Numbered from the stretch's first letter, positions 542 to 41,675 are shown. The stretch: 44,786 bases of DNA from an uncultured Gammaproteobacteria bacterium (GCA_964634645.1 CAZWKI010000004.1:1-44786); one strand, 5' to 3'. Translations and numbers: made by a program. Notes: a model not told the origin generated them from the letters alone.

Positions 542-608
542 TTCTCGAAATTTATGTTTAATACTTAATTGGTATTTTTACAATTTTTAAATAATGTTAT
601 AATAAAGG

Positions 609-760
609 TGCGAAACAGTAAAATAAGTTTGTAAAGATTTTTTTAGAAAACTCTATTGTTTTCCTATTTGCGACAATGCTCGGGCATTCCGACCAAAACG
701 CAAGTAGAATCTTCACGGACACCTTTTGCTGTTTCGCAGGTCGGGTGTTCGTTTTTGTTT
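609..760 (+). ncRNA. Candidate structured leader RNA/sRNA, copy 1, ending in an intrinsic terminator
   Basis: A TATAAT box lies at 598-603. Helices are tgcgaaacag(609-618)/ctgtttcgca(729-738) and ctatttgcg(664-672)/cgcaagtag(699-707). The terminator stem acggacacc(715-723)/ggtgttcgt(744-752) is followed by a T-run at 753-760. The same architecture, with compensatory changes, recurs at 37114-37273. Confidence 0.55.
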
Positions 761-799
761 CATCCGGACATTGACCATTTATAATTAATAAAAAAGAAA

Positions 800-1300
800 A
801 TGGACAATCAAGAAAAGACAAAAAAGAAATTTTATAAAAAATGGTGGTTCTGGGTAATTGTAGTAATTGTATTATTTGCTATTGGTAATTCTGGTGATAA
901 AAAAATTGAAAAGGTAGAAAATAATAATCAAAACCCTGTAAGCGATCAAAAAGCTAATAATCAGGTAGCACCACAAGAAGTTGAATATGTAATAGTTAGC
1001 GCCGTTGATTTAAGTAAAGCATATAATGATAATAAAGTTGCTGCCGATGCTAAATACGAGAATAAAGATATTAAAGTAAATGGAGTGATTAGTAGTATTG
1101 GAAAAGATATTACAGACACGCCCTATGTTTCATTGAAAGGACCAGAAAGTTCATTTTTTGGTATTCAGTGCATGTTCTCTAAAGACGACGAAAGTAAGTT
1201 GGTAGATCTTTCAAAAGGACAAAGCATTACTTTGACCGGTAAATTGTCGGGCGAAATGATTGGTAATGTAATACTAAGAGATTGTAGTATAGTTGAATAG
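800..1300 (+). CDS. Membrane-anchored OB-fold protein (tRNA_anti-like family)
   Basis: N-terminal TM segment (WWFWVIVVIVLFAIG). The C-terminal part, KAYNDNKVAADAKYENKDIKVNGVISSI...QSITLTGKL, matches my recollection of the tRNA_anti-like OB-fold family. Confidence 0.55.
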   Translation: MDNQEKTKKKFYKKWWFWVIVVIVLFAIGNSGDKKIEKVENNNQNPVSDQKANNQVAPQEVEYVIVSAVDLSKAYNDNKVAADAKYENKDIKVNGVISSIGKDITDTPYVSLKGPESSFFGIQCMFSKDDESKLVDLSKGQSITLTGKLSGEMIGNVILRDCSIVE

Positions 1301-1312
1301 TTTTTTAATAAA

Positions 1313-1345
1313 AGAGCGTTATGTTTTTCACTAACGCTTTTTTTA
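1313..1345. terminator. Bidirectional intrinsic terminator between convergent genes
   Basis: Stem agcgtta(1315-1321)/taacgct(1332-1338), flanked by an A-run upstream and a T-run at 1339-1344. Confidence 0.6.
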
Positions 1346-1361
1346 TTACCATGTCTATTTT

Positions 1362-2414
1362 TTATAAATTTAAATTTGGATCAGCAGTTATTTTGAAATT
1401 ATTTTTCTTTGCTTTATTTCTACCTGCCAGCCGTAGCCATAGCGAAGGCTGGTTAAAGTAACCAGTAATTGCAATCATTGCAGCATTATCCCCCGTGTGT
1501 TTTAGTTCTGGGAAATATGTTTTTATATTAAGTTTTTTAGCATCAAGTTTAATTCTATTTTTTATAGAACTATTTGCGCTTACTCCACCCCCAAAAATTA
1601 TTGTTTTTACATTATAATCTTTTGCAGAATTAATAATTTTTTTTGAAAGCACATTACAAACAGCAGATTCAAAAGCAAAACAATATTCTTTTATTAATTT
1701 CTGATTTTTTTCTCTTTGTTCATCTCTCCATTTATAAAGCACAGAAGTTTTGAGTCCTGAGAAAGAAAAATTATAATCTTTTGTATTTAACATTGGGCGA
1801 GGGAATTCAAATGTTGCTTTGCCACTAAATTCATTTGCGAGCTTGTTTATTATTGGACCACCAGGATAGCCAAGTCCAAGAATTTTTGCAACTTTGTCAA
1901 ATGCTTCACCAACCGCGTCATCAATTGTGGTTCCTAATAATTTATATTTTCCGTAATTTTTCATGAGGAATATTTGTGTATGCCCGCCTGAGATTACTAC
2001 CGCAAGAGCTGGAAAAATATTTTTTTTATCAAATAGTTCAGGGTAAGTGAGCCAGTTGCTATAAATATGAGCCTCTATATGATTTATAGGAATTAATGGT
2101 TTTTTGTAAATAAATGATAATGTTTTTCCAAGTTCTAATCCTATGACTAAAGACGTAATAAGTCCTGGACCATATGTGACTGCAATTAAATCAACATCAG
2201 AAGCAATATCAACATCTAATTCCTTTAACAATGGAAAAAAATTCTCAGCATGGTGTCTTGCTGCGATCTCAGGAACTATTCCACCATATTGTTTATGAAT
2301 TTCTACTTGTGAAGAGATAAGATTTTTTAGAATTTTTATTTCATTATTCTTATTTATCTCAATAAGTGATAATGCGCTTTCATCACAAGAGGACTCTATG
2401 CCTAAAATTCTCAT
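1362..2414 (-). CDS. tsaD: tRNA N6-adenosine threonylcarbamoyltransferase TsaD (Kae1/Gcp)
   Basis: MRILGIESSCDESA N-terminus, HIEAHI metal-binding block and GGVSAN motif. About 350 aa. Confidence 0.9.
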   Translation of the reverse strand: MRILGIESSCDESALSLIEINKNNEIKILKNLISSQVEIHKQYGGIVPEIAARHHAENFFPLLKELDVDIASDVDLIAVTYGPGLITSLVIGLELGKTLSFIYKKPLIPINHIEAHIYSNWLTYPELFDKKNIFPALAVVISGGHTQIFLMKNYGKYKLLGTTIDDAVGEAFDKVAKILGLGYPGGPIINKLANEFSGKATFEFPRPMLNTKDYNFSFSGLKTSVLYKWRDEQREKNQKLIKEYCFAFESAVCNVLSKKIINSAKDYNVKTIIFGGGVSANSSIKNRIKLDAKKLNIKTYFPELKHTGDNAAMIAITGYFNQPSLWLRLAGRNKAKKNNFKITADPNLNL

Positions 2415-2530
2415 TATTTTTTATTTATTATTTATAATTTTCAATTTATTTATTATTTATTTATTTTGTTATTTAAATAATTAAATAGTAAATTGAAAAT
2501 CAATTGAAATTTGAAAATTGAAAATAGTAA

Positions 2531-3967
2531 TTATTCCGAAAACACCTCTGCTTGGTATGTTAAAAATTTAGTTTCTTTATCTTTGTAACAATCCCACTCT
2601 AGTCCCGCTTTTTGACAAAGTGAGCCAAAAAAATCATCTTCATTTTTTATTCCTTCCCAGACTTGTGGTAAATAAGTTGCTCCGTATCTACCACTTTTTA
2701 AAACAACGCCGTCAATATTTTTTTTAATATTTTTAAATTCGCAACTTTGTGGAATTGTTAATATGGATATTTCTATTTTTATATTTTTTAATTCGTTTTG
2801 AGATAGAGGAGAAAATCTTGTGTCTTCAAATGAAGCTGATAATGCATTTAATTGTATGGCTTTATATAATTTTTCAATTGGTTCTATGTAACCAATACAG
2901 CCACGAAGTTTATTGTCTTTATTTAGTGTTACAAAAACACCTCTTTTTTCTTTTAAATTTTCTGGAATTTCAGATTCTTCAATTGGCAATAATTTACCAT
3001 CGTTTAAAAGTGCATATTCAATTGTATTCCTTGCAAGATTTAGTAAAAAGTCTTTATCCGCTTTCGCTAAAGCTTCAGCGGATAAATTTTCTTTGAAAAT
3101 TACAGACATATATCCAACAACAGAGGAATTGTCATGAGTTATATCTCCACTATCACCATATTTTATTAATTCACCCTTCCAATTATTTAGCCTTGCAATT
3201 TCAAACAGTAATTTTATTCCGATTTCTCCACAAGCCTCACATTCGCTATTAAATTCTAATGTATTTATTGAGTCAATACATTTTTGATCAAGTTCACTTG
3301 CTTTTTCTTTTTCGTAATAATGAGATAAATCAGAGCTTATTACAATTAGAGTTTTATCATCAATTATTTCATTAAGATTTTTTGCAGCACTTTTTATTTT
3401 TTCATCATTTATAGCTCCAGCAATAATAGGAACAAACTGCCACTTATTTTTTAAAATGTTTTGTAAAAATGGAATTTGTACCTCTACAGAGTGCTCTTCA
3501 GTCATTGCATCATCATTGTATTTGAATTCATCAAACGATTCTAGTTTATTTATAAAATCAATATCAAGCTCAACTTGACCAAGGGGTGTTTGCCATGCGT
3601 CAGCATGCGATAGACCAAAATTATTTAAATATTCTTGATGAGATGGACCAATTACAACAACGCGTGCTATGTTATTATAGTTTTCAATTTGTCGGAATGC
3701 ATTTGCAGCTATTTGGCCACTATAAACATAACCCGCGTGGGGAACTATTAGGGCTTTGATATCAGAAATATTTTTATTTTCTGAATTTTCAAAAAAATCA
3801 CTAAGTGTCCACAATAGTTTTTCGCGTTCTTCTGGATAAAAAGCCCCAGCAACGGCTGGAAGTCGAATAATTTTTTCTTGACTCATATTTTTTATATAAA
3901 AAATTGTTCCAAGTGAGAAGCTTATTAGAATAATTGTAACAACAATTATTATAATTTTATTTCTCAT
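2531..3967 (-). CDS. Fusion of Memo-like (AmmeMemoRadiSam system protein B) and AMMECR1 domains with an N-terminal TM anchor
   Basis: The N-terminal half carries AGAFYP...VPHAGYVYSG (Memo/MEMO1 family). The C-terminal half carries RGVFVTL...LRGCIGY (AMMECR1). The N-terminus IIIIVVTIILISFSLGTIFYI is a hydrophobic anchor. Confidence 0.8.
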   Translation of the reverse strand: MRNKIIIIVVTIILISFSLGTIFYIKNMSQEKIIRLPAVAGAFYPEEREKLLWTLSDFFENSENKNISDIKALIVPHAGYVYSGQIAANAFRQIENYNNIARVVVIGPSHQEYLNNFGLSHADAWQTPLGQVELDIDFINKLESFDEFKYNDDAMTEEHSVEVQIPFLQNILKNKWQFVPIIAGAINDEKIKSAAKNLNEIIDDKTLIVISSDLSHYYEKEKASELDQKCIDSINTLEFNSECEACGEIGIKLLFEIARLNNWKGELIKYGDSGDITHDNSSVVGYMSVIFKENLSAEALAKADKDFLLNLARNTIEYALLNDGKLLPIEESEIPENLKEKRGVFVTLNKDNKLRGCIGYIEPIEKLYKAIQLNALSASFEDTRFSPLSQNELKNIKIEISILTIPQSCEFKNIKKNIDGVVLKSGRYGATYLPQVWEGIKNEDDFFGSLCQKAGLEWDCYKDKETKFLTYQAEVFSE

Positions 3968-29208: not shown

Positions 29209-29281
29209 GCGCCGTTAGCTCAGTTGGTAGAGCAGTTGCCTCTTAAGCAAACGGTCGCAGGTTCGAATCCTGCACGGCGTA
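29209..29281 (+). tRNA. tRNA-Lys (anticodon CUU), CCA encoded at 29282-29284
   Basis: Hand-folded. Acceptor gcgccgt/acggcgt (G-U first pair), D arm gctc-agttggta-gagc, anticodon loop ctcttaa, T arm gcagg-ttcgaat-cctgc. Confidence 0.85.
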
Positions 29282-29338
29282 CCACCCTTTGAGAGGTTCG
29301 AGAGACCTCAACACCTTGTCGTGGCAAGAACCATGAAA

Positions 29339-29416: not shown

Positions 29417-30427
29417 ATGGATAATATGATTATCAAAAGAAAAGACTTAATGAAAAAAATAGAGATTGGAAGGCCACATCTGGTACTACTTGGTGCTGGT
29501 GCAAGTAGAGCAGCATTTCCAAACGGAGATAAAAATGGAATTCAATTACCCCTAATGAATGATCTGTTTAATATTATTGATTTAGAATTTTTAATAGAAA
29601 AATATAACATCGACGTTCAAAATGATAATTTTGAAGAGTTCTTTAGTAATTTATATGAGCGTGAAGATAATAAAATAATTGCTAATGAGGTAGAAAAGGA
29701 AATTTTTAATTTTTTTAAAAAATTGGAGCTGCCAGAAGAACCAACTATATATGATTATTTAGTATTATCTCTAAGGAAAAAAGATGTTATAGCGACTTTT
29801 AATTGGGATCCATTTTTATGGTTAGCTGCTAGAAGAAATTATGGCGTTGTTGATTTGCCGCACCTAATTTTTTTACATGGGAATGTAGTGGTTGGATATT
29901 GCCATAATTGTAAAATAAAGGGCCAAATCAATTATGAATGCCCACAATGTGGTCAATTATATACCCCATCTCATCTTTTGTATCCGGTTAAGAAAAAAGA
30001 CTATGACTCTGATCCGGCTATCGCTGGAGAGTGGACTATGATAAAAGAATATATGAAACATGCATATATATTTTCAATCTTTGGTTATAGTGCTCCAACA
30101 ACAGATATAGAAGCAATGAATATTTTTAAAACTGCATGGGGAGGAACGGGCAATAGAAATTTTGAACAGATAGAATTTATCCATAAACCCAATAGTAGCG
30201 AAGATGATGTTATTAATCCCTGGAAAGATTTTATTCATTCTCATCATTATGATATTACAGATGATTTCTTTAAATCTATAATGAGTAGATATCCAAGAAG
30301 AACTTGCGATGCTTTTTGGGCAGCCACTATGGAAGTAAGATTCGTTGAAAATAATTACCCACCAAAAAATGTTGATTTAATAACTTTGCAAAATTGGTTT
30401 AGAAAATTTAAAGAATACGAGAATTAA
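29417..30427 (+). CDS. SIR2-family (sirtuin-like) NAD-binding protein with Cys4 zinc ribbon
   Basis: The motifs LLGAGASRAAF (GAGxS), ATFNWDP (TxNxD-like), FLHGN (catalytic His) and CHNC-x14-CPQC (Zn ribbon) are followed by IFGYSAPTTD. Their order and spacing match the sirtuin/SIR2_2 fold. Confidence 0.7.
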   Translation: MDNMIIKRKDLMKKIEIGRPHLVLLGAGASRAAFPNGDKNGIQLPLMNDLFNIIDLEFLIEKYNIDVQNDNFEEFFSNLYEREDNKIIANEVEKEIFNFFKKLELPEEPTIYDYLVLSLRKKDVIATFNWDPFLWLAARRNYGVVDLPHLIFLHGNVVVGYCHNCKIKGQINYECPQCGQLYTPSHLLYPVKKKDYDSDPAIAGEWTMIKEYMKHAYIFSIFGYSAPTTDIEAMNIFKTAWGGTGNRNFEQIEFIHKPNSSEDDVINPWKDFIHSHHYDITDDFFKSIMSRYPRRTCDAFWAATMEVRFVENNYPPKNVDLITLQNWFRKFKEYEN

Positions 30428-31000
30428 ATGATTAATAATGACATAAAATATAAATTTTTTTTGATTAGTCATCATGATAATAAACCCCATTTAATTTTTA
30501 CTATTAAGTTTGATAAAGATAATGTTTATTTTATTAATTCGGGATTCATAAAAAATTTTAAAACTAAGATTAGTTATCATACGCCTAGACTACCTAGCAA
30601 CAAATCTCAAGTACATTTCAAAGTAAACGATAGACGTATTAATGACGCTGATTTATGTTGTCCAGCGAATGAAATAAAGGGTGTGCGATATTTTGGTGGT
30701 AGTGGTACCCCATTAGATCAATTGATAAACTTACCAATTTTTAAAAAAGAAAAGAGGGGCGAAAAATGTTTTATCTTTGATAGTAGAAAATTACGCATGA
30801 GTCATTTATCAAGCATACAATGGTCATGGTTCTTTGTAGAGCCAGATCAAGAAGAATCATTATATAAACACCCTATTATAGATAATGGTGACAGTGAATT
30901 TTCAGAAAGTATGCATATTCAACTTATCAAAGAAACCATCCCCTGGGTTGGTATAGAATATATTAGAATAAGAGAAGAAAACCCCATATGGTATAAGTAA
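30428..31000 (+). CDS. Hypothetical protein translationally coupled to the SIR2-like gene
   Basis: The ATG directly abuts the SIR2 stop codon (TAAATG at 30425-30430). The protein is 190 aa with no TM segment and no motif I recognise. The pair shares the terminator at 31035-31066. Confidence 0.5.
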   Translation: MINNDIKYKFFLISHHDNKPHLIFTIKFDKDNVYFINSGFIKNFKTKISYHTPRLPSNKSQVHFKVNDRRINDADLCCPANEIKGVRYFGGSGTPLDQLINLPIFKKEKRGEKCFIFDSRKLRMSHLSSIQWSWFFVEPDQEESLYKHPIIDNGDSEFSESMHIQLIKETIPWVGIEYIRIREENPIWYK

Positions 31001-31034
31001 TTATTTTGTCGAGGCATTGTTATAATTTAAAATT

Positions 31035-31066
31035 TAAAACTCTCGGAAATGAGTTTTTTTTGTTTT
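31035..31066 (+). terminator. Intrinsic terminator closing the SIR2 two-gene operon
   Basis: Stem aaaactc(31036-31042)/gagtttt(31051-31057) followed by a long T-run. Confidence 0.55.
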
Positions 31067-31132
31067 AATCTTAAATTGATTTTTGAGTTTAAATGTGAGA
31101 TTATTAAAATATAAAGATTTGAATTTAAAATA

Positions 31133-31549
31133 ATGGAAAAACGGATCACAGAAGATTTTGTAAAAAATGCAATAATAAAATGGCTTTCTGCAAATGGTTG
31201 GGGATATTTTCATTTTGGTGGTTTACATGACCATGGAGTTGATATCAAGGCGAAGCGTCATGGATATTCTAGATATTTTTTTATAGAAACAAAGGGAGAT
31301 GGAAGTAGGAGAGAAATGAATGAAAATTATTTTATTTATTCTCTTGGCCAGATTATTACAAGAATTAAAGATTCTAAAACAACAAGAAATTATTATGCTC
31401 TTGGATTACCAGAAAGTATATCAAAAATAGCAATTAGAAGAATTCCATGGCAAGTATCAAAAAAACTTTTACTTTTTATTCTTTCAGTAAATAAACAAGG
31501 TAAGGTTCAACAATATAGTTGGCAAGATCTAAAAAATTTACAAGAATAG
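31133..31549 (+). CDS. Small PD-(D/E)xK-fold nuclease-like protein
   Basis: HGVDIKAKRHGYSRYFFIETKG gives a D...ExK arrangement after an alpha-helical N-terminus, like Hjc, Mrr and YraN-type restriction-endonuclease folds. Confidence 0.45.
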   Translation: MEKRITEDFVKNAIIKWLSANGWGYFHFGGLHDHGVDIKAKRHGYSRYFFIETKGDGSRREMNENYFIYSLGQIITRIKDSKTTRNYYALGLPESISKIAIRRIPWQVSKKLLLFILSVNKQGKVQQYSWQDLKNLQE

Positions 31550-31576
31550 ATTAGTTTTTTATAAATATTATATATA

Positions 31577-33205
31577 ATGTCTATCTCTAAAGAATTATCT
31601 TATTTATTAGGTTTAATGGTTGGTAGGGGCCATATCTTTTCTAATAGCAACATATTAGCTATTGAGTTTTCTCACACAAATGAATTTTCTTATGGTATCG
31701 CTCATTGCCCAACATGTGGTTATTTAGCTACTAAACAGGGTGATGGTTTAATATGTAAAAATAAAAATTGTAAAAAATCAGTTAATTCAAATAATAGAAA
31801 AATTTATAACCAACCCTTGTCAACAGTATCATCTTTAAAGAATGTAATTATACCCTTTTTATCTAATTCTATTGAGGCAGACTATGACATTTCCGGTAAT
31901 AATGCTTTAACGCTTTTGATAATAGATTTTCATAAAAATAAAAAGGATTTCGACAATATAAAAACTTATTTAAACAATGAGTCTAGTTTTGACAGTTTTC
32001 ACATTCCAGACATTATTAAAAAATCTGACGAGTATTTAAAAATAGAATTTATCAATGGCTTATTAGATACAGCCGGGTTTCCATCTCCTGGTGGTTGGTT
32101 AAATCGTGACGGTAAAAATGGTCATGGTCGTATGAGAGTTTATTTTCAATTTGTAAGAAATTGGTATTTGCCCGTTGAAGTAGACAATTTTCTTAGAAAA
32201 GAATTTTCTTTACCTATTCATACTATTGATTGGGGTCATCCAAATATTCGAGATGCAAACATGGAAGATTATTTTAATGCTAGGCCAACTAGCTGGAGCA
32301 GAGAACATCAGGTAAAATTTTTTCCAGAGTATTATAAAACATTTCATTTTAGAATTTCTTATAAACAAGAATTATTTAAAGAACTAATTACTCATAATGA
32401 AAAAGTGATTTTTACATCCCGAGATGATTGGTTTCCTCCTAGCTCTATTGGAATTAAAAAAATTAAGGCATATCATCCAGGAGAAGAAGATGTAAGAATC
32501 CCAGAACCTGCAAGGAAACACTTTAATGCGTTTTGGCAGATTAATTTAGCCATGGGTTGTGAATATATAACTGGTCTAGTTGATAAAGCAAAAAATAAAG
32601 AGGCTTTTATGCTGACGGGAGAAGATAAAAAGATTGATATTGAAAAGATCAAGAAGTTATTTGATATACAAAGTACGAAAATGCAGAAAGAAATTTTTGC
32701 AAAATATGAATCTGTGGAGAAAAAACAATCATTGAAACAATGTTTTGTAAAAAATGAAAAGGAAAAACAGCTATATCTACCATTAACAGAGTATTTAAAA
32801 ATATATATAAAAGAACACTATGATGAGGAATCTGACGTTTTTGATACGTCAGCTAATAACTTAAACTTATTTTTAAAAAACAAAAATAAAGAACTCTTTG
32901 GTGTATTTGATTATTGTGAAAAATTTAGAATTAAACCAGATGTAGTAGGTTTTTTAGTTAACTCCAAAAAAATTATTTTCGTTGAGGCAAAAATAATTGC
33001 GCTTGATTTAAAGTCTCTTGGGCAATTAATAGGCTATTGTTTTGTAGCTAAGCCCGAAGAAGCAATTCTTGTTTCATCTCAGCGACCGTCAATCTCACTG
33101 ATTAAAATTTTGAAAGCAAGACCAGATTTATTGGAATATGATGATGGTAAGAAAATTAAGCTAGGTGTCTGGGAGAACAACAAGATTTCTTTAATAGAAT
33201 TATAA
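31577..33205 (+). CDS. Multidomain protein: LAGLIDADG-like double motif with inserted zinc ribbon, plus C-terminal NucS/RecB-like PD-(D/E)xK nuclease domain
   Basis: YLLGLMVGRGHI (degenerate first LAGLIDADG motif; compare I-DmoI YLLGLIIGDGG) and FINGLLDTAGF (second motif). Zinc ribbon CPTCG...CKNKNC. The C-terminal KPDVVGF...IFVEAK...GQLIGY gives D, ExK and QxxxY motifs. Confidence 0.5.
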   Translation: MSISKELSYLLGLMVGRGHIFSNSNILAIEFSHTNEFSYGIAHCPTCGYLATKQGDGLICKNKNCKKSVNSNNRKIYNQPLSTVSSLKNVIIPFLSNSIEADYDISGNNALTLLIIDFHKNKKDFDNIKTYLNNESSFDSFHIPDIIKKSDEYLKIEFINGLLDTAGFPSPGGWLNRDGKNGHGRMRVYFQFVRNWYLPVEVDNFLRKEFSLPIHTIDWGHPNIRDANMEDYFNARPTSWSREHQVKFFPEYYKTFHFRISYKQELFKELITHNEKVIFTSRDDWFPPSSIGIKKIKAYHPGEEDVRIPEPARKHFNAFWQINLAMGCEYITGLVDKAKNKEAFMLTGEDKKIDIEKIKKLFDIQSTKMQKEIFAKYESVEKKQSLKQCFVKNEKEKQLYLPLTEYLKIYIKEHYDEESDVFDTSANNLNLFLKNKNKELFGVFDYCEKFRIKPDVVGFLVNSKKIIFVEAKIIALDLKSLGQLIGYCFVAKPEEAILVSSQRPSISLIKILKARPDLLEYDDGKKIKLGVWENNKISLIEL

Positions 33206-33209
33206 AAAT

Positions 33210-33713
33210 ATGGATAAAAAAATGTTATCTTTATCGATTAAAAAATGGCTTGGGAAATTTTTAGAACAAAAATATTCCCAAGACTATGATATTATCGATG
33301 TCATTATCCCAGAATCTAATTTATCTAAACTTCCAATATCATCAATTAAATCTTGTGAAAATTATTCATCTTGGGAATTTAAACCAGATGTTCTTGGGAT
33401 ATTAAAAAATAAAAATAACTCAAAAATAGAGTTAGTTTTAGTAAATAGGTCTACTAGTTCTTTGAGCCTTAAGGAAATAGGTGAAATATATTGTTATTCA
33501 AAACTAGTAAATGCAAAGATATCATTTTTGATATCAGCAAATGGTGTGTCCAATGAAGTTAATATTTTATTAGTTGATGAAAAAATAAGAAATAAACTAC
33601 TTAACTATTCCTTGGACAATGAAATTATAATTTGTTCATGGGATAAAAATAAAGAAGGTATAAATGAAGATTTAGTCATTCCTCTAGATAAAAAAGGATT
33701 TATATCTTTGTGA
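33210..33713 (+). CDS. Paralogue of the C-terminal nuclease domain of the preceding gene with a degenerate active site
   Basis: KKWLGKFLEQKYSQDYDIIDV...FKPDVLGIL...LVLVNRS...GEIYCY aligns by eye with EYLKIYIKEHYDEESDVFDT...IKPDVVGFL...IFVEAKI...GQLIGY. The ExK residues are replaced (N-R-S). Confidence 0.45.
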   Translation: MDKKMLSLSIKKWLGKFLEQKYSQDYDIIDVIIPESNLSKLPISSIKSCENYSSWEFKPDVLGILKNKNNSKIELVLVNRSTSSLSLKEIGEIYCYSKLVNAKISFLISANGVSNEVNILLVDEKIRNKLLNYSLDNEIIICSWDKNKEGINEDLVIPLDKKGFISL

Positions 33714-33714
33714 T

Positions 33715-34524
33715 TTATTTTCGTTTCCAATATATACAAATATATTCGTGAACTTTATTAAATCTGAATACATAAGGATAGCCCAATGTTTTCATATTGT
33801 TGTATTCTTTTTGTCTATCCCAAATTACATACTCTTCTAATTCAAATCCGATTTCTCTCATTATTCTTGTTTGATCTTCATGAAAAGGATAAAACTTATC
33901 TTTTTTTCTTATATCCATTACAACACTGCAGCATCTTTTATTTGGTTTTAATGCTCTATATACCCCCCTATAAATATTTTTTAAATCTTCTAAAAAATCT
34001 TCGTAACTAACCGTATTACCAATGTCCTTTTTTGAACCAGAATAATTTTTTTTATTTTTATTGTCCGCGGTTCTTTTCATATTTAATATATCCCAATATG
34101 GTGGAGACGTAACGACCAAATCAACTGAGTTGTCTTTAATATATTTATTTAAATTTCTAGCATCGTCATTATATATTTCTGGCTGAAAAAAATCTTTCCT
34201 TTTTTTACTAAAGAGATCTTCTTGTATTATTTCAACTCTTTTTTTTGCTATTTTACAATATTCTTTGTTTAAGTCTATTCCAATGCCTCTCTTGCCTAAT
34301 TTATAGGCAGCTTTAAGTGTTGACCCTATTCCTAAAAAAGGATCTAATATTATTTCACCAGGATTTTTTGTATATATGTTGATCAATTTTTCCGCTAATT
34401 GCTCTGGGAACATTGCCGGATGTTTAAGCTTCCTCTCTTCTGAAGTTTTATTTATTTCTCTCCAAATAGTAAACGAGTTTTGCAACCATTCTTTCCCAGA
34501 AAAATTATTCATTCTTTCTGCCAT
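33715..34524 (-). CDS. N4/N6 DNA methyltransferase (N6_N4_Mtase family) with SAM-binding block before the SPPY block
   Basis: HPAMFPEQLAEKLI and LDPFLGIGST (SAM-binding) are in the N-terminal half. DLVVTSPPY (catalytic motif IV) is in the C-terminal half. Confidence 0.8.
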   Translation of the reverse strand: MAERMNNFSGKEWLQNSFTIWREINKTSEERKLKHPAMFPEQLAEKLINIYTKNPGEIILDPFLGIGSTLKAAYKLGKRGIGIDLNKEYCKIAKKRVEIIQEDLFSKKRKDFFQPEIYNDDARNLNKYIKDNSVDLVVTSPPYWDILNMKRTADNKNKKNYSGSKKDIGNTVSYEDFLEDLKNIYRGVYRALKPNKRCCSVVMDIRKKDKFYPFHEDQTRIMREIGFELEEYVIWDRQKEYNNMKTLGYPYVFRFNKVHEYICIYWKRK

Positions 34525-34528
34525 AAAG

Positions 34529-35668: not shown

Positions 35669-36988
35669 TTAATTATCTAATGTTATCCTTCTATCTCTCA
35701 ACACCAGCCTATTTTTCAAATTACTCATTAATTCTCTCTTCTCAAGTATTGTTCCTTGTTGAAGAATGTATTTAGCATAATCTTTCATGTTAATTTGTTT
35801 TTGATTTTCATGGTCATTTATTTTTACTCCAAGCACTCCAGTTCTAAAGCTATGATATCTTTCAACTTCATGTTGTACTTTTTCTTTCATTCCTAATTTA
35901 TCTAAGTCTAGTGTATCTATCATTTCGGTTATTTGTTCTATTAACCTATCTTCTCTAATGCTTTCTGATTTACAATTTAAATCTTTACCTCTTGTACAAT
36001 TGTAATAAATATAACGGTGAGTATTACCGTTTTTTTGTTTCTTAAATTTTTCAACTGCTGTAATACCACTTCCACATAATCCACAGGTCATTAGCTTAGT
36101 GAATGCAAATTCTCTATCTTGTGTTTTACCAACATACGCATCAGTAATTTTTTCTTGTACTTTATCAAATAGCTCTTTTGATATTATTGGTTCATGATTT
36201 CCTTTATACCATGTACCACTACTTCTTGGATATTCAAATGTTCCGGTATAGAAACTATTATGAAGTATCATATAAATATGACTTAGTGTTACATAATATC
36301 CATTTTTTGATTTAAATTTTAAATTATCCTTTAACCATCTATATAGTTTCCTACCACTATAACTTTCATAAGCAACTTTTTCAAACATTTGTTTTATTAT
36401 GGGTGCTCTTATTGGATCTACAAGTATCTGACATTTTTTATCAACTCTATTTTGGTTCAAGTATCCTATTGGAGCGGGTCCTGGCCACAATCCCATTTCT
36501 ACTCTTGTCTTAAGACCACGTTTTACATTTACTCCTTTATTATCGTTTTCTAGTTTTGCTTGTGATCCTAAAATCATAAGAAGAAACTTTTCATTTGGAT
36601 TGTTAGTAAATTTCTGACTGTATGTCCTTATCTCTACTAACTTACCTTGATCCATTAAATCTACTAGTGCTCCAAGATCTCCTGCATTTCTACTTAACCT
36701 ATCAGGTGCCCAACAAAGTATTCCTTGAAACAATCCATTTCTTAGATCATTTATTAGTGTATTAAATACATTTCTCTGCCCAGTGTCTTTAGCACTGTGT
36801 GATTCACGTCTAATTTCTACAATGTTTAGATTTTCTTTTCTTGCTAGTTCTAGCATTTCTTTGATTTGGCTATCTATGGATAGAACCTGCTTTTCTTCTG
36901 ACTCTGTTGATTTTCTTGCATAGAGGCAATACTTCAGAGGAATGGTCTCTAATGCCTCTGAAACACCCTCATTTTGTTCTATTTTCAT
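35669..36988 (-). CDS. Large serine recombinase
   Basis: YCLYARKSTESEEKQ contains the catalytic Ser. It is followed by the resolvase domain, the recombinase domain and the zinc ribbon CGLCGSGITAV...YYNCTRG. Confidence 0.9.
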   Translation of the reverse strand: MKIEQNEGVSEALETIPLKYCLYARKSTESEEKQVLSIDSQIKEMLELARKENLNIVEIRRESHSAKDTGQRNVFNTLINDLRNGLFQGILCWAPDRLSRNAGDLGALVDLMDQGKLVEIRTYSQKFTNNPNEKFLLMILGSQAKLENDNKGVNVKRGLKTRVEMGLWPGPAPIGYLNQNRVDKKCQILVDPIRAPIIKQMFEKVAYESYSGRKLYRWLKDNLKFKSKNGYYVTLSHIYMILHNSFYTGTFEYPRSSGTWYKGNHEPIISKELFDKVQEKITDAYVGKTQDREFAFTKLMTCGLCGSGITAVEKFKKQKNGNTHRYIYYNCTRGKDLNCKSESIREDRLIEQITEMIDTLDLDKLGMKEKVQHEVERYHSFRTGVLGVKINDHENQKQINMKDYAKYILQQGTILEKRELMSNLKNRLVLRDRRITLDN

Positions 36989-37113
36989 ATTGTGTTGTTA
37001 CTTGTTACAACATAATTGATGACGCAATATTTAGAGGAAGTCCAGCTCTTTGAAGTAGGTAAACTGTTGGTAACTCGACTTCATTAATCGTTATTTTTAA
37101 GTTATAATAAAAA

Positions 37114-37273
37114 TGCGAAACAATAAAGGTGAATATGAGGAATTTTGAACAAAAATAATACTTTTTGTATTTTGTTCCATTTGTGACAAGGTTCGGACAT
37201 TCCGATCAAAACACAAATGGGACTCCTCACGGATACCTTTGTTGTTTCGCAGGTCGGGTGTCCGTTTTTGTTT
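37114..37273 (+). ncRNA. Candidate structured leader RNA/sRNA, copy 2
   Basis: TATAAT at 37103-37108. Helices are tgcgaaacaa(37114-37123)/ttgtttcgca(37242-37251) and ccatttgtg(37177-37185)/cacaaatgg(37212-37220). Terminator acggatacc(37229-37237)/ggtgtccgt(37257-37265) is followed by a T-run at 37266-37273. Confidence 0.55.
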
Positions 37274-37288
37274 ATATAAAATTTAGAT

Positions 37289-38020
37289 ATGAAGATAAAA
37301 ATTGCAAACTGGAATATGGCTTATTGGCAACACAAACAATTGCATGATGAATCATGGGATTTTTTCTTAAATAGAATAGACGCAGATATTTTTCTTTTTC
37401 AGGAAGCAAAACCAAATAAAGTCATAAAACATGAAAAAGATAATTTAGTTTGGGATGAGATAGGGGGTAAGCGTGATTGGGGTTCCGGAATATATAGTCC
37501 AAAATGTAAGTTAGTGGAAGAAAAAATAGAAACAAAATTTAATGGGGTATTTTCTATTGCTAATACAGAAATTGGAAATAAAAAATTAACGCTAATTTCA
37601 TTATATGGACTTATGACAAGTAGTGGTCCAGAAAAAGGATATTCAATTCCAAACCTTCATAGAATGTTATCAGACCTAACTCCACTTTTTAATGGTCGTA
37701 TTGATGGCAAAAGAAATATTATTATGTCTGGAGATTTAAATGCTAGTACTCAGTTTGATAAAATACAAAATAATAATTCTCATAAGATTCTCTTTGATAG
37801 AATTGATGACTTTGGATTAAAAGACGTCTATCAACTTTCGGGAAATAAAAGCCACATTCAAACTCTACGTTATGCTCGCAGTGAAACGCCTTGGCAAAAT
37901 GATTATTTTTTTATAAGCAAACCTATTTCAAATAAGTTTATAAAATATGAAATTATTGATAACGAAGAAGTAAGAAAATATAGTGATCATAATATTGTCA
38001 CAATTGAAGTAGATTTATAA
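37289..38020 (+). CDS. Endonuclease/exonuclease/phosphatase (EEP, DNase I-like) family protein
   Basis: IANWNM (N-terminal Asn), LFQEA (catalytic Glu), SGDLNAS (DxN) and YSDHNIV (DH), in the canonical EEP order. Confidence 0.8.
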   Translation: MKIKIANWNMAYWQHKQLHDESWDFFLNRIDADIFLFQEAKPNKVIKHEKDNLVWDEIGGKRDWGSGIYSPKCKLVEEKIETKFNGVFSIANTEIGNKKLTLISLYGLMTSSGPEKGYSIPNLHRMLSDLTPLFNGRIDGKRNIIMSGDLNASTQFDKIQNNNSHKILFDRIDDFGLKDVYQLSGNKSHIQTLRYARSETPWQNDYFFISKPISNKFIKYEIIDNEEVRKYSDHNIVTIEVDL

Positions 38021-38039: not shown

Positions 38040-38507
38040 TTAATTACTAATATCTTCTATATTAGTTTTTTTATTTACAGAATAGTTGATTTTAGATTCT
38101 CTAGCTATTCTTAGAAGTTCTTCTAATTTTTCTATGGCTCTATCTGATTTTTCATCTTCTTTTCTTTTTCTTTCTCTTTCTGCTTCCCTCTCTAATTCTC
38201 TTATTTTAGAACTTTGCATGCTATTCTTTCTATATTTGAGATAATTATTCTCTAACCAAAATTTAATAGATTTAAAATCACTATTTTTAATATTATTGAT
38301 TAAACCAGACTCAGCTAAATCGTTTATTATGGGTATACTTATTTTTCTTGCTACATTACATCTTTTAGAAAAGTTTTTATCATATTGTTTCCACCTGTAA
38401 TAAGTACTTCTTTGTATAGCTAGTTTTGTACACGCCACTTGAACAATTGGATTTGATTCTAGTTCCTCTATAAACTTTTTTTTAATTTGAGCTTGATTGG
38501 GAATCAT
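38040..38507 (-). CDS. HTH-domain protein of phage/plasmid type (possible small-terminase-like or directionality factor)
   Basis: VACTKLAIQRSTYYRWKQ is a helix-turn-helix-like segment, and the C-terminus is a charged coiled coil. The gene overlaps the ParB-methylase gene end by 26 nt. Confidence 0.35.
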   Translation of the reverse strand: MIPNQAQIKKKFIEELESNPIVQVACTKLAIQRSTYYRWKQYDKNFSKRCNVARKISIPIINDLAESGLINNIKNSDFKSIKFWLENNYLKYRKNSMQSSKIRELEREAERERKRKEDEKSDRAIEKLEELLRIARESKINYSVNKKTNIEDISN

Positions 38508-39849
38508 ATAATTTTACCCTTCTCCCACAGAATGCCTTTTCCCATCTATTAATTATTACTTCTGTATAAATAGGAGATTTTTCCATTATGAAACATCTCC
38601 TACCTAACTTATTTGCAGCAATCAATGTACTACCGCTCCCACCGAATGGCTCAAGAACTAGTTGATCTCTTTTGGTAAGCACTTTAATATATGGAATTAA
38701 TATTTCTATTGGTTTTGTTCCAAATATTATTCCTTGTCCAGATGACTTCTCATCGGATGCGTGGTACTCAATAAAGTCCGTGGGGCAGTACTTCTTTCCC
38801 TTTTCGTAGCTTTCCCATTGAGGTTTCCCTGCAATTGCAAAAAGTGCTGTTTCATATTCATTTTGAAGACCCTCACCCTCATCTTCTAAATTATATTCAA
38901 TGTCAGTATCAGAAGAACCAACCATCGCTATGTCATACTTATTAAAGAATTTATACTTAGAAGAAAATCCTTGCATCCTATTGTTTAAATGCCATACTAA
39001 CATATTCTTTATTTTCCAGTATTTTGCCATCTCATTCCATATTGTCATAATGTTTTTCCAATTCTCATAAACTATAATGCTAAAGTTTTCATTAGCAACT
39101 TTACTGACATTTGCCATCCATAATTCTGTAAAGTTTTCAGGTAATGATTCTGTTTCAAGGTATCTTCTATTTTTCTTCGCTCCGAATCCAACAGTTGCCT
39201 CTCCGTGCCTAGTCTTACCTTGAAGGTAGTTTAAAATATAAGGTGGATCTGTTAGACAAAAATCTGCTTTTTCATTTCCCATTAGTTTCATCATATCTTC
39301 TTCAATAGTGGAATCTCCACACATAATTTTTGATCCACCCAGATCATATATATCTCCTTTTTGAACAGTTATTTCTGTTATATTTAATTTAGCTAATTCT
39401 TTTTTTAAATCAAATATTTCTTCTTGACTAGTATCTATGTCAAATATTTTATCCATGTCGATACTATCAAATCCTATGTTTGTAAGAAGACTTTTATCAA
39501 ACTTAGACAACAGGTCAAAATCAAATTCACCTTGATTCTTGTTTAATCTAATATTTAACTCCATTTCTTTTTCTATGTCTGGGATATTAACGTATACAAC
39601 TGGAACAGTTTTAATTCCCAATTCCAGCGCTACAGCGTGGCGAAAATGTCCACCGATCAAGACATTGTGCCTTTCAGGAGAGGAGTTGGCTATGAATGGA
39701 TCTACTAGCCCGAATCTAGTAATACTTTCCTTTAGTTGATCAAATTGAGTCTTGTCCCACTTACGTGGGTTTTCTGTATTGAGTTTTAGTTCTTCAATAG
39801 GAACTTGTGTTATCTGGATTTTATCCAGAATATTTTTGTCTTCCGACAT
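38482..39849 (-). CDS. ParB-like nuclease domain fused to an N4/N6 DNA methyltransferase
   Basis: N-terminal NPRKWD...LIGGHFRH (ParB/Srx fold). This is followed by FCLTDPPY (motif IV) and LEPFGGSGSTLIAA (motif I), in classical beta-class order. Confidence 0.85.
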   Translation of the reverse strand: MSEDKNILDKIQITQVPIEELKLNTENPRKWDKTQFDQLKESITRFGLVDPFIANSSPERHNVLIGGHFRHAVALELGIKTVPVVYVNIPDIEKEMELNIRLNKNQGEFDFDLLSKFDKSLLTNIGFDSIDMDKIFDIDTSQEEIFDLKKELAKLNITEITVQKGDIYDLGGSKIMCGDSTIEEDMMKLMGNEKADFCLTDPPYILNYLQGKTRHGEATVGFGAKKNRRYLETESLPENFTELWMANVSKVANENFSIIVYENWKNIMTIWNEMAKYWKIKNMLVWHLNNRMQGFSSKYKFFNKYDIAMVGSSDTDIEYNLEDEGEGLQNEYETALFAIAGKPQWESYEKGKKYCPTDFIEYHASDEKSSGQGIIFGTKPIEILIPYIKVLTKRDQLVLEPFGGSGSTLIAANKLGRRCFIMEKSPIYTEVIINRWEKAFCGRRVKLYDSQSSSN

Positions 39850-41049: not shown

Positions 41050-41051
41050 AT

Positions 41052-41675
41052 ATGAAGAGCCACAATCTCTCTATAAAATTTTATATCTTTTTTATTTTAG
41101 TTTTCTTATACCCAGCTATTTATTTATCAGGCGTGACCTTAAGTTTAATGAATCTTATGTCTATAAAAAACGCCTATATTAATAATTTAATAAATTTAGG
41201 TGTTTTAGAATTTTTAACTCCAGTAGCATTATTATTATTGTTTTTTTATATAACCAATCATTGGCTTTGGAAATTAATTAATAAAATACTCGGCATCCCG
41301 ATAATTTCAGGAAGATATAAAGGTGTTTTAAAAAGCACTTATGCTGAAAATAGCTCTCATGATATTATTTTAGAAATAGATCAAACATTAACTCAAATTG
41401 AAGTTTATTTTTATACAGAAAAATCTAAATCGCATAGTATAGTTAGCGGTCTATTTAAAAATGATCAGGGCGCTTGGTCTATGTATTATATATATGAAAA
41501 TAAAACTCGTGTAATGGATGATAATTCTGACATGAAAGATCATGAGGGAGTCTCTGTAGTTGATATTAATGAGAGATCTTTAAGTGGGTATTATTTTAAT
41601 GATTTAAGAAATAGGGGCCGATGTGGAAATTTTAACGTAGAATTTGTCAGCAAGAGATTGCTTAAAAGATATTAA
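41052..41675 (+). CDS. Two-TM, beta-strand-rich effector (S-2TMBeta / Cap15-like)
   Basis: Two N-terminal TM helices are followed by a beta-rich C-terminal domain (ISGRYKGVLKSTY...ILEIDQTLTQIEVYFY...SGYYFND...GNFNVEFV). The start is 2 nt after the cyclase stop. Confidence 0.5.
   Translation: MKSHNLSIKFYIFFILVFLYPAIYLSGVTLSLMNLMSIKNAYINNLINLGVLEFLTPVALLLLFFYITNHWLWKLINKILGIPIISGRYKGVLKSTYAENSSHDIILEIDQTLTQIEVYFYTEKSKSHSIVSGLFKNDQGAWSMYYIYENKTRVMDDNSDMKDHEGVSVVDINERSLSGYYFNDLRNRGRCGNFNVEFVSKRLLKRY

What the first reader, a model, noticed from the sequence alone, without database searches (positions are those of the whole stretch)
596..760. Duplicated ~150-nt structured RNA leader with compensatory base changes (copy 1, upstream of an OB-fold surface protein)
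Regions 596-760 and 37101-37273 are alignable on the + strand. Both begin with gttataataaa, which contains a TATAAT -10 box.

Three helices are maintained by paired substitutions:
- A long-range helix: tgcgaaacaG(609-618)/Ctgtttcgca(729-738) versus tgcgaaacaA(37114-37123)/Ttgtttcgca(37242-37251).
- A 9-bp hairpin: ctatttgcg/cgcaagtag versus ccatttgtg/cacaaatgg, with three positions changed and pairing preserved at all three.
- A terminator stem: acggacacc/ggtgttcgt versus acggatacc/ggtgtccgt, each followed by ttttgttt.

The inner loop tcgg-Rcatt-ccga and the segment caaaac are invariant. The ~45-53 nt between helix 1 and helix 2 is unrelated in the two copies. The 3' strand of the long-range helix sits inside the terminator loop, which allows a pseudoknot or mutually exclusive folds, as in riboswitch expression platforms.

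The track ORFs over these regions (597-821 on -, 37165-37347 on +) are on opposite strands, so protein coding does not explain the conservation. I do not recognise this as any riboswitch or sRNA family I know.
Basis: seen in the sequence. Interest (0 to 1): 0.7.

Follow-up and report, generated by a model that had tools for sequence, protein, structure and literature searches.

The report
New structured RNA in CPR prophages
The duplicated 155-165-nt segment is a real, previously uncatalogued structured RNA with its own promoter and a built-in terminator; it sits in front of variable "cargo" genes in integrase-bearing mobile elements of ultra-small (CPR) bacteria and most likely gates read-through into them, so it is not a metabolite riboswitch.

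Summary
Window 606-760 and 37111-37273 (+) are two copies of one RNA. I found 13 more distinct members in CPR genomes, metagenomes and one predicted viral contig.

All 15 fold into the same shape: a long 5'/3' closing helix (P1+P1b), a variable hairpin (P2) and a conserved hairpin (P3). On the 15-sequence alignment 95.8% of pair cells are paired, and 17 pairs show compensatory double changes (0 of 500 shuffles reach this). G·U outnumbers A·C 40 to 4 on the 13-sequence alignment, so the + strand RNA is what folds. No Rfam 15 family matches.

The downstream genes fall into about 10 unrelated families. The usual slot is: large serine recombinase (-), promoter, RNA (+), cargo (+), then HTH/terminase and ParB-methylase (-). 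In homologous slots of other elements the RNA is replaced by Rfam LOOT RNA.

The invariant 3' block (GGUCGGGUGUCCG plus U5GU3) can pair with three partners.

Best reading: a multi-state terminator/antiterminator leader. The trigger is unknown. The main rival is a stand-alone sRNA.

The parts
598..603 (+). -10 box (TATAAT) of copy 1; the RNA 5' end is inferred about 7 nt downstream
   Evidence: A -10-like hexamer lies at the same distance before P1 in all 15 members
606..760 (+). RNA copy 1 (155 nt): P1, P1b, P2, P3, 3' block and U-tract
   Evidence: CM R1 142.6 bits; MFE -51.1 kcal/mol, z = -4.9
609..623 (+). P1 5' strand of copy 1; pairs with 724-738
   Evidence: 7 of 11 modelled P1 pairs show double compensatory changes; 99.4% of cells paired
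646..663 (+). P2, the variable hairpin of copy 1
   Evidence: A hairpin is predicted at this position in 13 of 15 members and is absent in L003 and L035; the sequence is not conserved
664..707 (+). P3 hairpin of copy 1 (stem 664-672 / 699-707) with internal loop and tip
   Evidence: 10 of 10 P3 pairs show double compensatory changes; 97.3% of cells paired
680..694 (+). Box A, the P3 tip UCGGGCAUUCCGACC. It forms a weak local hairpin and is also complementary to the 3' block
   Evidence: A:C gives 13 bp, paired in 100% of cells on 13 sequences; the same 13 pairs are never unpaired on 15 sequences; it extends to 20-22 bp through CA(A)GG and the U-tract
715..723 (+). It lies in or next to P1b in the closed fold
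   Evidence: T5:T3 is 93.3% paired, with only wobble-compatible one-sided changes
724..738 (+). P1 3' strand of copy 1. It lies inside the loop of the T5:T3 hairpin
739..760 (+). Invariant 3' block C (GGUCGGGUGUUCG) plus U5GU3 tract of copy 1
   Evidence: Invariant also in the two members found by covariance model in loci fetched through a protein
764..776 (+). Box D (CCGGACAUUGACC) after the U-tract; complementary to block C
   Evidence: C:D duplex -14.8 kcal/mol, z = -4.3; a D box is present in 9 of 15 loci
800..1300 (+). Cargo gene of copy 1: membrane-anchored OB-fold protein (tRNA_anti-like)
   Evidence: Pfam PF12869, E = 4e-29; homologues elsewhere are preceded by this RNA or by LOOT RNA
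35669..36988 (-). Large serine recombinase, divergent from copy 2
   Evidence: Resolvase + Recombinase + Zn_ribbon_recom domains; the same arrangement occurs in L035, L123, L124, L127 and L171
37061..37108 (+). Promoter module of copy 2: conserved block AAACTGTTGGTAACT (37061-37075), -35-like TTCATT (37080-37085), -10 TATAAT (37103-37108)
   Evidence: A full or near-full version of the block lies upstream of 9 of 15 RNA copies (win_c2, L035, L123, L124, L127, L155, L161, L171, L172), and it also precedes the recombinase in L129 and L139, which lack this RNA
37111..37273 (+). RNA copy 2 (163 nt). P1 37114-37130 / 37235-37251; P3 37177-37185 / 37212-37220; box A 37193-37207; T5 37229-37237; block C 37252-37264; U-tract 37265-37273
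   Evidence: CM R1 148.8 bits; MFE -61.0 kcal/mol, z = -7.0
37289..38020 (+). Cargo gene of copy 2: endonuclease/exonuclease/phosphatase-like protein
   Evidence: Weak Pfam PF03372 match, E = 1.2e-4, below the family cut-off
38040..39849 (-). Element backbone convergent on the cargo: HTH (small-terminase-like) and ParB-N + N6/N4 methylase
   Evidence: the same order occurs in L123, L143, L161, L164, L168 and L171

Best explanation
This is a promoter-proximal leader RNA of a self-contained 'cargo' (moron-like) transcription unit, carried by elements of Patescibacteria/CPR that encode a large serine recombinase and look like prophages.

Transcription starts about 7 nt after a conserved -10 box. 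The nascent RNA can take one of two kinds of fold.

(I) A closed three-way junction. The extreme 5' end pairs with the 3' region (P1+P1b), which sequesters box T5. P3 holds box A at its tip. The invariant 3' block C is left unpaired, so RNA polymerase reads through into the cargo gene.

(II) A terminator. In the second case the invariant G of the U-tract pairs with the conserved C. Either hairpin would release a transcript of about 155 nt.

The choice between the folds sets how much of the often nuclease-like cargo is expressed.

Shown: the helices P1 and P3, the strand that folds, the complementarity of block C to its partners, the genomic context and the absence from Rfam. Inferred: transcription itself, termination at the U-tract, that the folds actually switch, and the trigger. 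The trigger is probably a protein or RNA factor of the element or host, not a metabolite.
For: Fifteen distinct members were collected. They come from pattern scans of the genome, metagenome and viral collections, and from covariance-model searches of loci fetched through neighbouring proteins.

- Structure. All 15 independently give the same MFE architecture. On alignment A4, 95.8% of pair cells are paired against 83.8% in shuffles and 35-46% in slid controls. Seventeen pairs have double changes and 0 of 500 shuffles reach this.
- Strand. G·U cells outnumber A·C cells 40 to 4 on the 13-sequence alignment, so the + strand RNA folds.
- Transcription unit. A -10 box lies at a fixed distance in all 15, and U5GU3 (or U5GUAU) follows block C in all 15.
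- Terminator options. T5:T3 is 93% paired. The 13 A:C pairs are paired in every sequence (on 13 sequences; per-pair table on 15). The U-to-A change at column 96, seen in 6 of 15, breaks the local tip hairpin but adds a pair to A:C.
- Energetics. Forced terminator folds lie 4-19 kcal/mol (T5:T3) and 5-28 kcal/mol (A:C) above the closed fold.
- T5 in the closed fold. T5 is paired with a 5' partner, and that partner changes with it: GUAUCC/GGAUAC in L003 and GUCCGC/GCGGAC in L028.
- Cargo coupling. Every RNA is co-oriented with the cargo, and the cargo start codon lies 13-88 nt after the end of block C in the 11 loci measured. This holds across about 10 unrelated cargo families.
- Conservation past the U-tract. 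Box D is complementary to block C in 9 of 15 loci, across four cargo families. This implies that read-through transcripts are under selection.
Against: - No expression data exist, so neither transcription nor termination is shown.
- The closed fold is both the thermodynamic minimum and the fold expected to form first during transcription. It is therefore unclear what ever lets a terminator form, and no trigger is identified.
- Neither terminator option has statistical covariation, because block C and box A barely vary. Part of that invariance is ascertainment: CATTCCGAYC and GCAGGTCGGGTG were my own search patterns.
- A TATAAT-like box follows box D, so the cargo could have its own promoter. 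That would make the RNA an independent gene.
- The RNA in the equivalent slot of related elements (LOOT) is typed by Rfam as an sRNA.
Confidence: 0.45

Rival explanations
1. It is a stand-alone small RNA gene of the mobile element that acts in trans. It has its own promoter and terminator. The mature 155-nt RNA is the closed rod, with paired ends and an exposed 3' tail. The cargo gene is expressed from its own promoter. The RNA could act on the element's or a sibling copy's transcripts through block C and box A, as the P4 CI and P1 c4 immunity RNAs do, or it could bind a protein.
For: - The homologous slot in related elements holds LOOT RNA (RF03000, typed 'Gene; sRNA'), followed by a plain terminator and then cargo.
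- The rod with paired 5' and 3' ends is very stable (-51 to -73 kcal/mol).
- Block C is single-stranded in the rod. It is complementary to boxes A, T5 and D, with trans duplexes of -18 to -25 kcal/mol.
- Three sources carry two copies each, all with identical or near-identical A and C boxes: the window, Komeilibacteria S5_K13 and one IMG/VR contig.
- A TATAAT-like box lies between box D and the cargo start codon.
Against: - An sRNA gene gains nothing from an antiterminator that out-competes its own terminator.
- The RNA is always co-oriented with, and adjacent to, cargo of about 10 unrelated families. The RNA and the OB-fold gene also occur together outside the element, between tsaE and tsaD.
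- No target outside the unit itself is known.
Confidence: 0.33
2. It is a metabolite-sensing riboswitch. The three-way junction would be an aptamer, and ligand binding would shift the P1/terminator balance.
For: A three-way junction whose closing helix competes with a terminator is a common riboswitch layout. The P3 internal loop and tip are conserved.
Against: - The downstream genes are functionally heterogeneous mobile-element cargo, not one pathway.
- P1+P1b spans roughly 18-29 bp and dominates without any ligand.
- The junction strands are not conserved, and the conserved nucleotides are explained by alternative pairing.
- No Rfam riboswitch matches, even at E up to 10.
Confidence: 0.07
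3. It is a DNA-level element. Either it is a MITE-like inverted-repeat element, or it is an attachment or cassette-exchange site of the neighbouring serine recombinase. The candidate site is the imperfect 38-bp palindrome formed by blocks C and D, centred on the invariant G(T) of T5GT3.
For: - A recombinase gene lies next to the RNA in at least 6 loci.
- In 6 of 15 loci similarity to the other members ends at T5GT3.
- The C-N13-D dyad symmetry occurs in 9 of 15 loci.
- Inverted repeats bound by one protein can mimic covariation.
Against: - G·U outnumbers A·C 40 to 4 on the 13-sequence alignment, which indicates strand-specific RNA pairing.
- The nested internal hairpins P2 and P3 covary independently.
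- Recombinases closely related to the window's own frequently lack the RNA.
- There is no room for a second site at the distal end of the cargo. The gaps to the next gene are 19 nt in the window, 1 nt in L171 and 81 nt in L143.
- No further half-sites occur in the window.
Confidence: 0.05
4. It is a leader-peptide attenuator. A leaderless mini-ORF would start at the NUG that opens the P1 5' strand, and ribosome occupancy would decide the fold.
For: Thirteen of 15 members have AUG, GUG or UUG at the first P1 position. The four-strand 1:2 / 2:3 / 3:4 logic resembles the trp attenuator.
Against: - The U and G of that codon are P1 base-pair positions, and the first base merely avoids C, which is rare in these A+T-rich sequences anyway.
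- By my reading of the sequences, the ORFs run from 5 to more than 30 codons, with no conserved peptide or regulatory codons.
- There is no Shine-Dalgarno sequence, and the inferred 5' end lies 2-3 nt before the NUG.
- Substitutions in this stretch are compensated on the RNA partner strand rather than being synonymous.
Confidence: 0.03

Closest known systems
LOOT RNA (Rfam RF03000)
   Same: It occupies the same slot in homologous CPR elements: next to the large serine recombinase and its conserved promoter block, on the cargo strand, followed by a terminator and then cargo. In L164 and L166 the cargo is even the same OB-fold family. It is of similar size (about 120 nt) and its function is also unknown.
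   Different: There is no detectable homology: the LOOT model does not hit either window copy at E up to 10. LOOT is four consecutive hairpins, whereas this RNA is a closed three-way junction. LOOT's terminator is a separate plain hairpin; here the terminator strands are interwoven with the fold.
Terminator/antiterminator leaders (trp-type attenuators; protein-controlled leaders such as the bgl/sac RAT and pyr leaders). Compared from general knowledge.
   Same: Mutually exclusive helices share strands, and a G+C-rich stem abuts a U-tract. A weak hairpin (box A) overlaps the 5' strand of a long terminator, as RAT does. Four-strand swap logic applies.
   Different: No leader peptide is present and no cognate RNA-binding protein is identified. 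The antiterminator is the global energy minimum. One 3' strand has two upstream partners and one downstream partner.
Riboswitch expression platforms
   Same: A P1-like closing helix competes with an intrinsic terminator, and the RNA forms a three-way junction.
   Different: There is no coherent gene set and no conserved junction pocket. P1 is too long to need ligand stabilisation. No Rfam class matches.
Phage RNA immunity systems (P4 CI RNA with seqA/seqB/seqC; P1/P7 c4 RNA). Recalled from memory, not tested here.
   Same: A prophage-encoded, promoter-proximal RNA has one block complementary to boxes upstream and downstream in the same leader, with premature termination as the output. L161 carries a Phage_P4_cII-domain gene next to the RNA.
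   Different: No sequence or structure match exists: no Rfam family, including C4, appears. Processing of the RNA and any trans action are unknown.
Phage morons (autonomous promoter-gene-terminator units next to the integrase)
   Same: The position between the integrase and the packaging genes, its own promoter, and variable cargo that looks like defence or exclusion functions.
   Different: Morons are not known to share a conserved structured leader of about 155 nt across unrelated cargo genes.

Membership tests
Any Rfam 15 family | Covariance-model score at or above the family's gathering threshold | tested here: not met
   The whole window gives only 3 tRNAs. Both copies searched at E up to 10 give only chance hits of at most 18 bits. 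L155 and L161 give nothing at the RNA.
LOOT RNA (RF03000) | Match to the LOOT model (gathering score 46.4 bits); four-hairpin architecture with CCUAAAC...GCAUGG and an AAAAAA linker | tested here: not met
   LOOT scores 72-91 bits in L139, L164 and L166 but is absent from the hit lists for the window copies. The architectures differ.
Structured RNA (generic) | Helices maintained by compensatory substitutions on the transcribed strand | tested here: met
   17 pairs with double changes and 0 of 500 shuffles reaching this; P1 7 of 11 pairs, P3 10 of 10 pairs. G·U 40 versus A·C 4 on the 13-sequence alignment.
Intrinsic-terminator attenuator | G+C-rich stem immediately followed by a U-tract | tested here: met
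   T5:T3 is 6-9 bp in all members. A:C is 13 bp and ends at the U-tract in all 15. The simple terminator scanner misses both because their loops exceed 8 nt.
Intrinsic-terminator attenuator | An alternative structure that excludes the terminator | tested here: met
   The P1 3' strand is the loop of the T5:T3 hairpin, and T5 is paired in P1b. The closed fold is favoured by 4-19 kcal/mol.
Intrinsic-terminator attenuator | Regulated read-through in vivo or in vitro | not testable with these tools
   Needs Term-seq or in vitro transcription.
Leader-peptide attenuator | Conserved short ORF with regulatory codons overlapping strand 1 | tested here: not met
   By my reading of the sequences the ORF length runs from 5 to more than 30 codons, with no conserved peptide.
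Metabolite riboswitch | Association with a functionally coherent set of genes | tested here: not met
   About 10 unrelated cargo families: OB-fold, EEP, Zn-ribbon, EcoRI methylase, NucS-like, DUF4116 and unknowns.
Metabolite riboswitch | Specific ligand binding by the aptamer | not testable with these tools
   Needs in-line probing or ITC.
MITE / DNA palindromic repeat | Strand-symmetric inverted repeats, target-site duplications and many dispersed copies | tested here: not met
   Pairing is strand-asymmetric. Only 2 copies occur in 44.8 kb, and both lie at gene 5' ends.
Large-serine-recombinase att site | A 40-50-bp imperfect dyad with a central dinucleotide that marks the junction between element and flank | tested here: inconclusive
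   A C-N13-D dyad occurs in 9 of 15 loci. However, the RNA lies inside the element, which has a conserved backbone on both sides. No distal site exists.

The most novel reading that the evidence does not exclude
The terminated 155-nt RNA may be an RNA immunity or cross-talk factor. Its exposed invariant 3' block would pair in trans with boxes A, T5 and D on nascent leaders of the same element and of sibling copies. This would form 13-22-bp intermolecular helices, or homodimers, that force termination. All cargo units sharing this leader in a cell would then be co-regulated without any protein repressor. That would be a P4-CI-like logic, newly seen in CPR elements and non-homologous to any known immunity RNA.
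Probability: 0.12. Interest if true: 0.8.

Novelty: new variant of a known kind. Interest (0 to 1): 0.55.

Why it matters
CPR/Patescibacteria make up a large share of bacterial diversity, yet very little is known about how they or their mobile elements regulate genes.

This RNA family is well supported by covariation and is absent from Rfam. It marks a recurrent slot in CPR prophage-like elements: promoter, structured RNA, then swappable cargo. The cargo genes resemble defence or exclusion functions.

The RNA is interchangeable with LOOT RNA, an orphan Rfam motif. LOOT thereby gains a concrete genomic setting and a testable role.

The single G/U-rich 3' strand with three conserved alternative partners is an unusual attenuator design. 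It could be tested directly in vitro.

Tried and rejected
- Rfam, at gathering thresholds and at E up to 10: nothing.
- The first genome-collection pattern was too loose. 116 of 119 loci were chance hits in G+C-rich genomes, most of them apparently one Rhodobacterales gene (49 share the same continuation). Only L003, L028 and L035 were real.
- Of the 9 metagenome hits, L122, L125 and L126 were chance matches.
- The first two viral-collection patterns found nothing. A looser one found one contig.
- Loci fetched through recombinase homologues P0041, P0003, P0002 and P0004 hold no copy of the RNA. P0008 only re-found L035.
- OB-fold homologue P0122 is not preceded by the RNA. P0141 and P0156 are preceded by LOOT instead, and the P0139 locus (L168) holds no copy.
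- Rejected after consideration: a leaderless mini-ORF, a MITE, an att or integron-like site, and CsrA, RAT, hammerhead or retron ncRNA resemblances. Reasons are given under the rivals. The last four were judged by eye only and no consistent motif was seen.
- Literature searches found no description of this RNA or of LOOT's function. They covered CPR plus ncRNA or riboswitch terms, 'LOOT', the conserved sequence strings, and CPR prophage recombinases.

Full report
**1. Observation.**
Window 596-760 and 37101-37273 align on the + strand. Mean identity over the 250-column alignment, which includes the flanks, is 80%. The two conserved blocks occur exactly twice in the 44.8-kb window, where about 0.01 matches are expected. 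Each copy folds much better than its shuffles (-51.1 kcal/mol, z = -4.9; -61.0 kcal/mol, z = -7.0). The minimum-energy fold is a closed three-way junction:
- a long closing helix between the extreme 5' end and the 3' region (P1, continued after an internal loop by P1b);
- a variable hairpin (P2);
- a conserved hairpin (P3) with an internal loop and a small tip hairpin.

**2. Known families.**
Rfam 15 finds only three tRNAs in the window. At E up to 10 the two copies give only chance hits of at most 18 bits.

**3. Homologues.**
- A two-block pattern scan of the species-representative genomes returned mostly chance hits in G+C-rich genomes. It also gave three true homologues: two in Candidatus Komeilibacteria S5_K13 and one in a Saccharibacteria MAG.
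- A tighter pattern on the metagenomes gave six more.
- I built covariance model R1 from these 11 sequences.
- Searching loci fetched through the cargo protein's homologues found two more divergent members, L155 and L161. These loci were not selected by any nucleotide pattern.
- A scan of viral contigs found two copies on one IMG/VR contig.
- The total is 15 distinct sequences (alignment A4).

One caveat applies. CATTCCGAYC and GCAGGTCGGGTG were search patterns, so their invariance is partly ascertainment. L155 and L161, which were found by the model, still keep ACGGRCAYYCCGACC and AGGUCGGGUGUCCGUUUUUGU.

**4. Structure support.**
- All 15 sequences fold on their own into the same architecture.
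- On A4, 95.8% of 570 pair cells are standard pairs. Column shuffles give 83.8% and slid partners give 35-46%.
- Seventeen pairs have changes on both sides, in 67 cells. The covariation score is 0.433 against 0.181 in shuffles. No shuffle of 500 reaches any of these values.
- P1 has 7 of 11 modelled pairs with compensatory changes. Examples are GCGAAACA/UGUUUCGC, GCAUAACCACA/UGUGGUUAUGC and GCCAAACAA/UUGUUUGGC. P3 has 10 of 10.
- On the 13-sequence alignment A3, G·U cells outnumber A·C cells 40 to 4. The pairing is therefore specific to the + strand transcript and is not a DNA palindrome.
- A4 was fitted to the model, which leans towards the structure. The independent MAFFT alignment A2 gave the same picture: 93% paired and 15 pairs with double changes.

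**5. Transcription unit.**
A -10-like hexamer (TATAAT, TATATT or TATACT) lies about 7 nt before the P1 5' strand in every member. A -35-like hexamer usually lies 17 nt further upstream. In 9 of the 15 members a full or near-full version of the conserved block GTAGRTAAACTGTTGGTAACT lies just upstream of the -35. All members end with block C followed by U5GU3 (or U5GUAU). Transcription and termination are inferred, not shown.

**6. Context.**
Copy 2 precedes a weak EEP-nuclease match. Across the family the downstream gene is always co-oriented. In the 11 loci measured, the start codon lies 13-88 nt after the end of block C. The cargo belongs to about 10 unrelated families:
- OB-fold membrane protein;
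- EEP nuclease;
- Zn-ribbon membrane protein;
- EcoRI-type methylase, followed by a GmrSD/HNH protein;
- NucS-like protein;
- DUF4116 repeat protein;
- several unknowns.

The recurrent arrangement is: large serine recombinase (-), promoter block, RNA (+), cargo (+), then HTH/small-terminase-like, sometimes large terminase, and ParB-methylase (all -). In L164 a host NAPRTase gene flanks the recombinase, which places the recombinase at the edge of the element.

The window's copy 2 lies in such an element. It has two methylases (33715-35566) and recombinase 1 (35669-36988) on one side. On the other side it has HTH and ParB-methylase (38040-39849), a CBASS pair of SMODS and Cap15 (40165-41675), DUF3644 and a second recombinase (42870-44507). 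Copy 1 with its OB-fold gene sits alone between tsaE and tsaD. The same arrangement is found on two other assemblies. The RNA and its cargo therefore occur together outside the element as well.

Many closely related recombinases lack the RNA. The RNA belongs to the cargo unit, not to the recombinase.

**7. LOOT.**
In homologous slots of L139, L164 and L166 a different structured RNA is present. Rfam identifies it as LOOT (RF03000; 72-91 bits against a gathering score of 46.4). Each is followed by a plain terminator and then cargo, which in L164 and L166 is the same OB-fold family. LOOT and this RNA share neither sequence nor architecture. They are alternative occupants of one slot. I found nothing in the accessible literature on LOOT's function.

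**8. Alternative pairings of the 3' block.**
Block C (GGUCGGGUGUCCG) is directly followed by the U-tract. It has three possible partners.

- The stem is 6-9 bp and 93% paired. All changes are wobble-compatible. By eye, L128 has one A-U to G-C double change.
- The 20-27-nt loop is the P1 3' strand. In the closed fold T5 is partly paired in P1b, with a 5' partner that changes along with it. P1/P1b and T5:T3 therefore exclude each other.

(b) Box A at the P3 tip.
- It gives 13 bp with one bulge, paired in 100% of cells. Nine of the 13 pairs never vary, so the statistics are uninformative.
- The helix extends through the conserved CA(A)GG tract, which pairs with U5GU. The invariant G of the U-tract pairs with the conserved C. 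The total reaches 20-22 bp.
- The U-to-A change at column 96 (6 of 15 members) breaks the local tip hairpin but adds an A-U pair to A:C.
- Inside this long hairpin, the linker plus the P3 3' strand can pair with the P1 3' strand. That helix is 80% paired, and 3 of its 8 pairs show double changes.
- For the whole alternative fold the support is modest. It is 88.5% paired against 86.7% in shuffles and 34-54% in slid controls. Sixteen of 500 shuffles reach its count of pairs with double changes, and 3 of 500 reach its covariation score.

(c) Box D, directly after the U-tract, in 9 of 15 loci spanning four cargo families. The duplexes are -12 to -18 kcal/mol, with z from -2.7 to -5.8.

Forced T5:T3 folds lie 4-19 kcal/mol above the closed fold, and forced A:C folds 5-28 kcal/mol above it.

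**9. Mechanism.**
The most economical reading is a multi-state terminator/antiterminator leader. In the closed fold P1/P1b hold T5 and the P1 3' strand, and P3 holds box A at its tip. Block C has no partner and the polymerase reads through. If the closing helix or P3 fails to form, block C pairs with T5 or with box A next to the U-tract, and transcription stops after about 155 nt. Conservation of box D beyond the U-tract suggests that read-through RNAs matter.

The weak point is that the closed fold is both the energy minimum and the fold expected to form first. Termination therefore needs a trigger that I cannot identify. A metabolite is unlikely, given the heterogeneous cargo and a closing helix of roughly 18-29 bp. 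A leaderless mini-ORF is unsupported.

The main rival is a stand-alone sRNA whose mature form is the rod with an exposed 3' block. LOOT's Rfam type, the two copies per genome in three sources, and a TATAAT-like box after box D all fit that rival. DNA-level explanations (a MITE or a recombinase att site) are disfavoured. The reasons are the G·U asymmetry, the independent covariation of the inner hairpins, and the lack of room for a distal site.

**10. Verdict.**
This is a real RNA family, well supported by covariation and not in Rfam 15. It is restricted, so far, to Patescibacteria and their prophage-like elements. It works most like a transcription-attenuating leader of swappable cargo genes. 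It is a new variant of a known kind, not a riboswitch, and its trigger is unknown.

Noticed in passing
L139:3706-3824(-), L164:2827-2944(+), L166:2823-2936(+): Rfam LOOT RNA (RF03000, 72-91 bits) occupies the same slot as the RNA studied here: next to the recombinase and upstream of cargo, in related CPR elements. This gives the orphan LOOT motif a concrete context in mobile elements.
   Followed up: partly
window 37061-37075; also upstream of the RNA in L035, L123, L124, L127, L155, L161, L171, L172, and next to the recombinase in L129 and L139: A conserved block AAACTGTTGRTAACT (often preceded by GTAGRT) lies just upstream of the -35 of the cargo-directed promoter. It is present whether the leader is this RNA, LOOT or neither. 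It may be an operator or UP-like element.
   Followed up: partly
window 36995-37060 (- strand is the recombinase 5' region): A second conserved stretch, TGACGCAA...TAGRGRAGTCCA, lies between the recombinase start codon and the promoter block. It is shared with L129, L139, L124, L127 and L171. It could be the recombinase's own regulatory region or 5' UTR.
   Followed up: no
window 40165-41675: A CBASS-like pair, a SMODS/CD-NTase-like protein and a Cap15 cyclic-dinucleotide receptor effector, lies inside the same element. L139 carries the same pair.
   Followed up: partly
window 42870-44507 (-); L171:10074-11786 (-); L143:1-605: A second, larger serine recombinase (545-570 aa) bounds the far side of the module. 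The compact 6-8 kb unit is therefore flanked by two recombinase genes. It is unclear whether the elements are nested or the recombinases act as a pair.
   Followed up: no
window 606-760 and 37111-37273; L003 and L035; L171 and L172: Three independent sources each carry two copies of the RNA with different or duplicated cargo. The A and C boxes are identical or nearly identical between the copies of a pair, which would allow RNA-RNA cross-talk.
   Followed up: partly
L028:1-796(-), 1107-3414(+): In the Saccharibacteria MAG the RNA is flanked upstream by a divergent reverse-transcriptase gene (RVT_1, cut by the contig end). Downstream lie an EcoRI-type methylase and a GmrSD/HNH nuclease.
   Followed up: no
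window 29417-33713: Five consecutive + strand ORFs (138-542 aa) have no Pfam match. They lie between tRNA-Lys (29209-29284) and the methylases, and may be the rest of the integrated element next to a tRNA.
   Followed up: no
window 764-790; L035, L003, L124, L155, L161, L171, L172: After box D comes a conserved AUUUAUAAWU(AA) stretch 10-25 nt before the cargo start codon. It could be a second -10 box for the cargo or part of the read-through leader.
   Followed up: no
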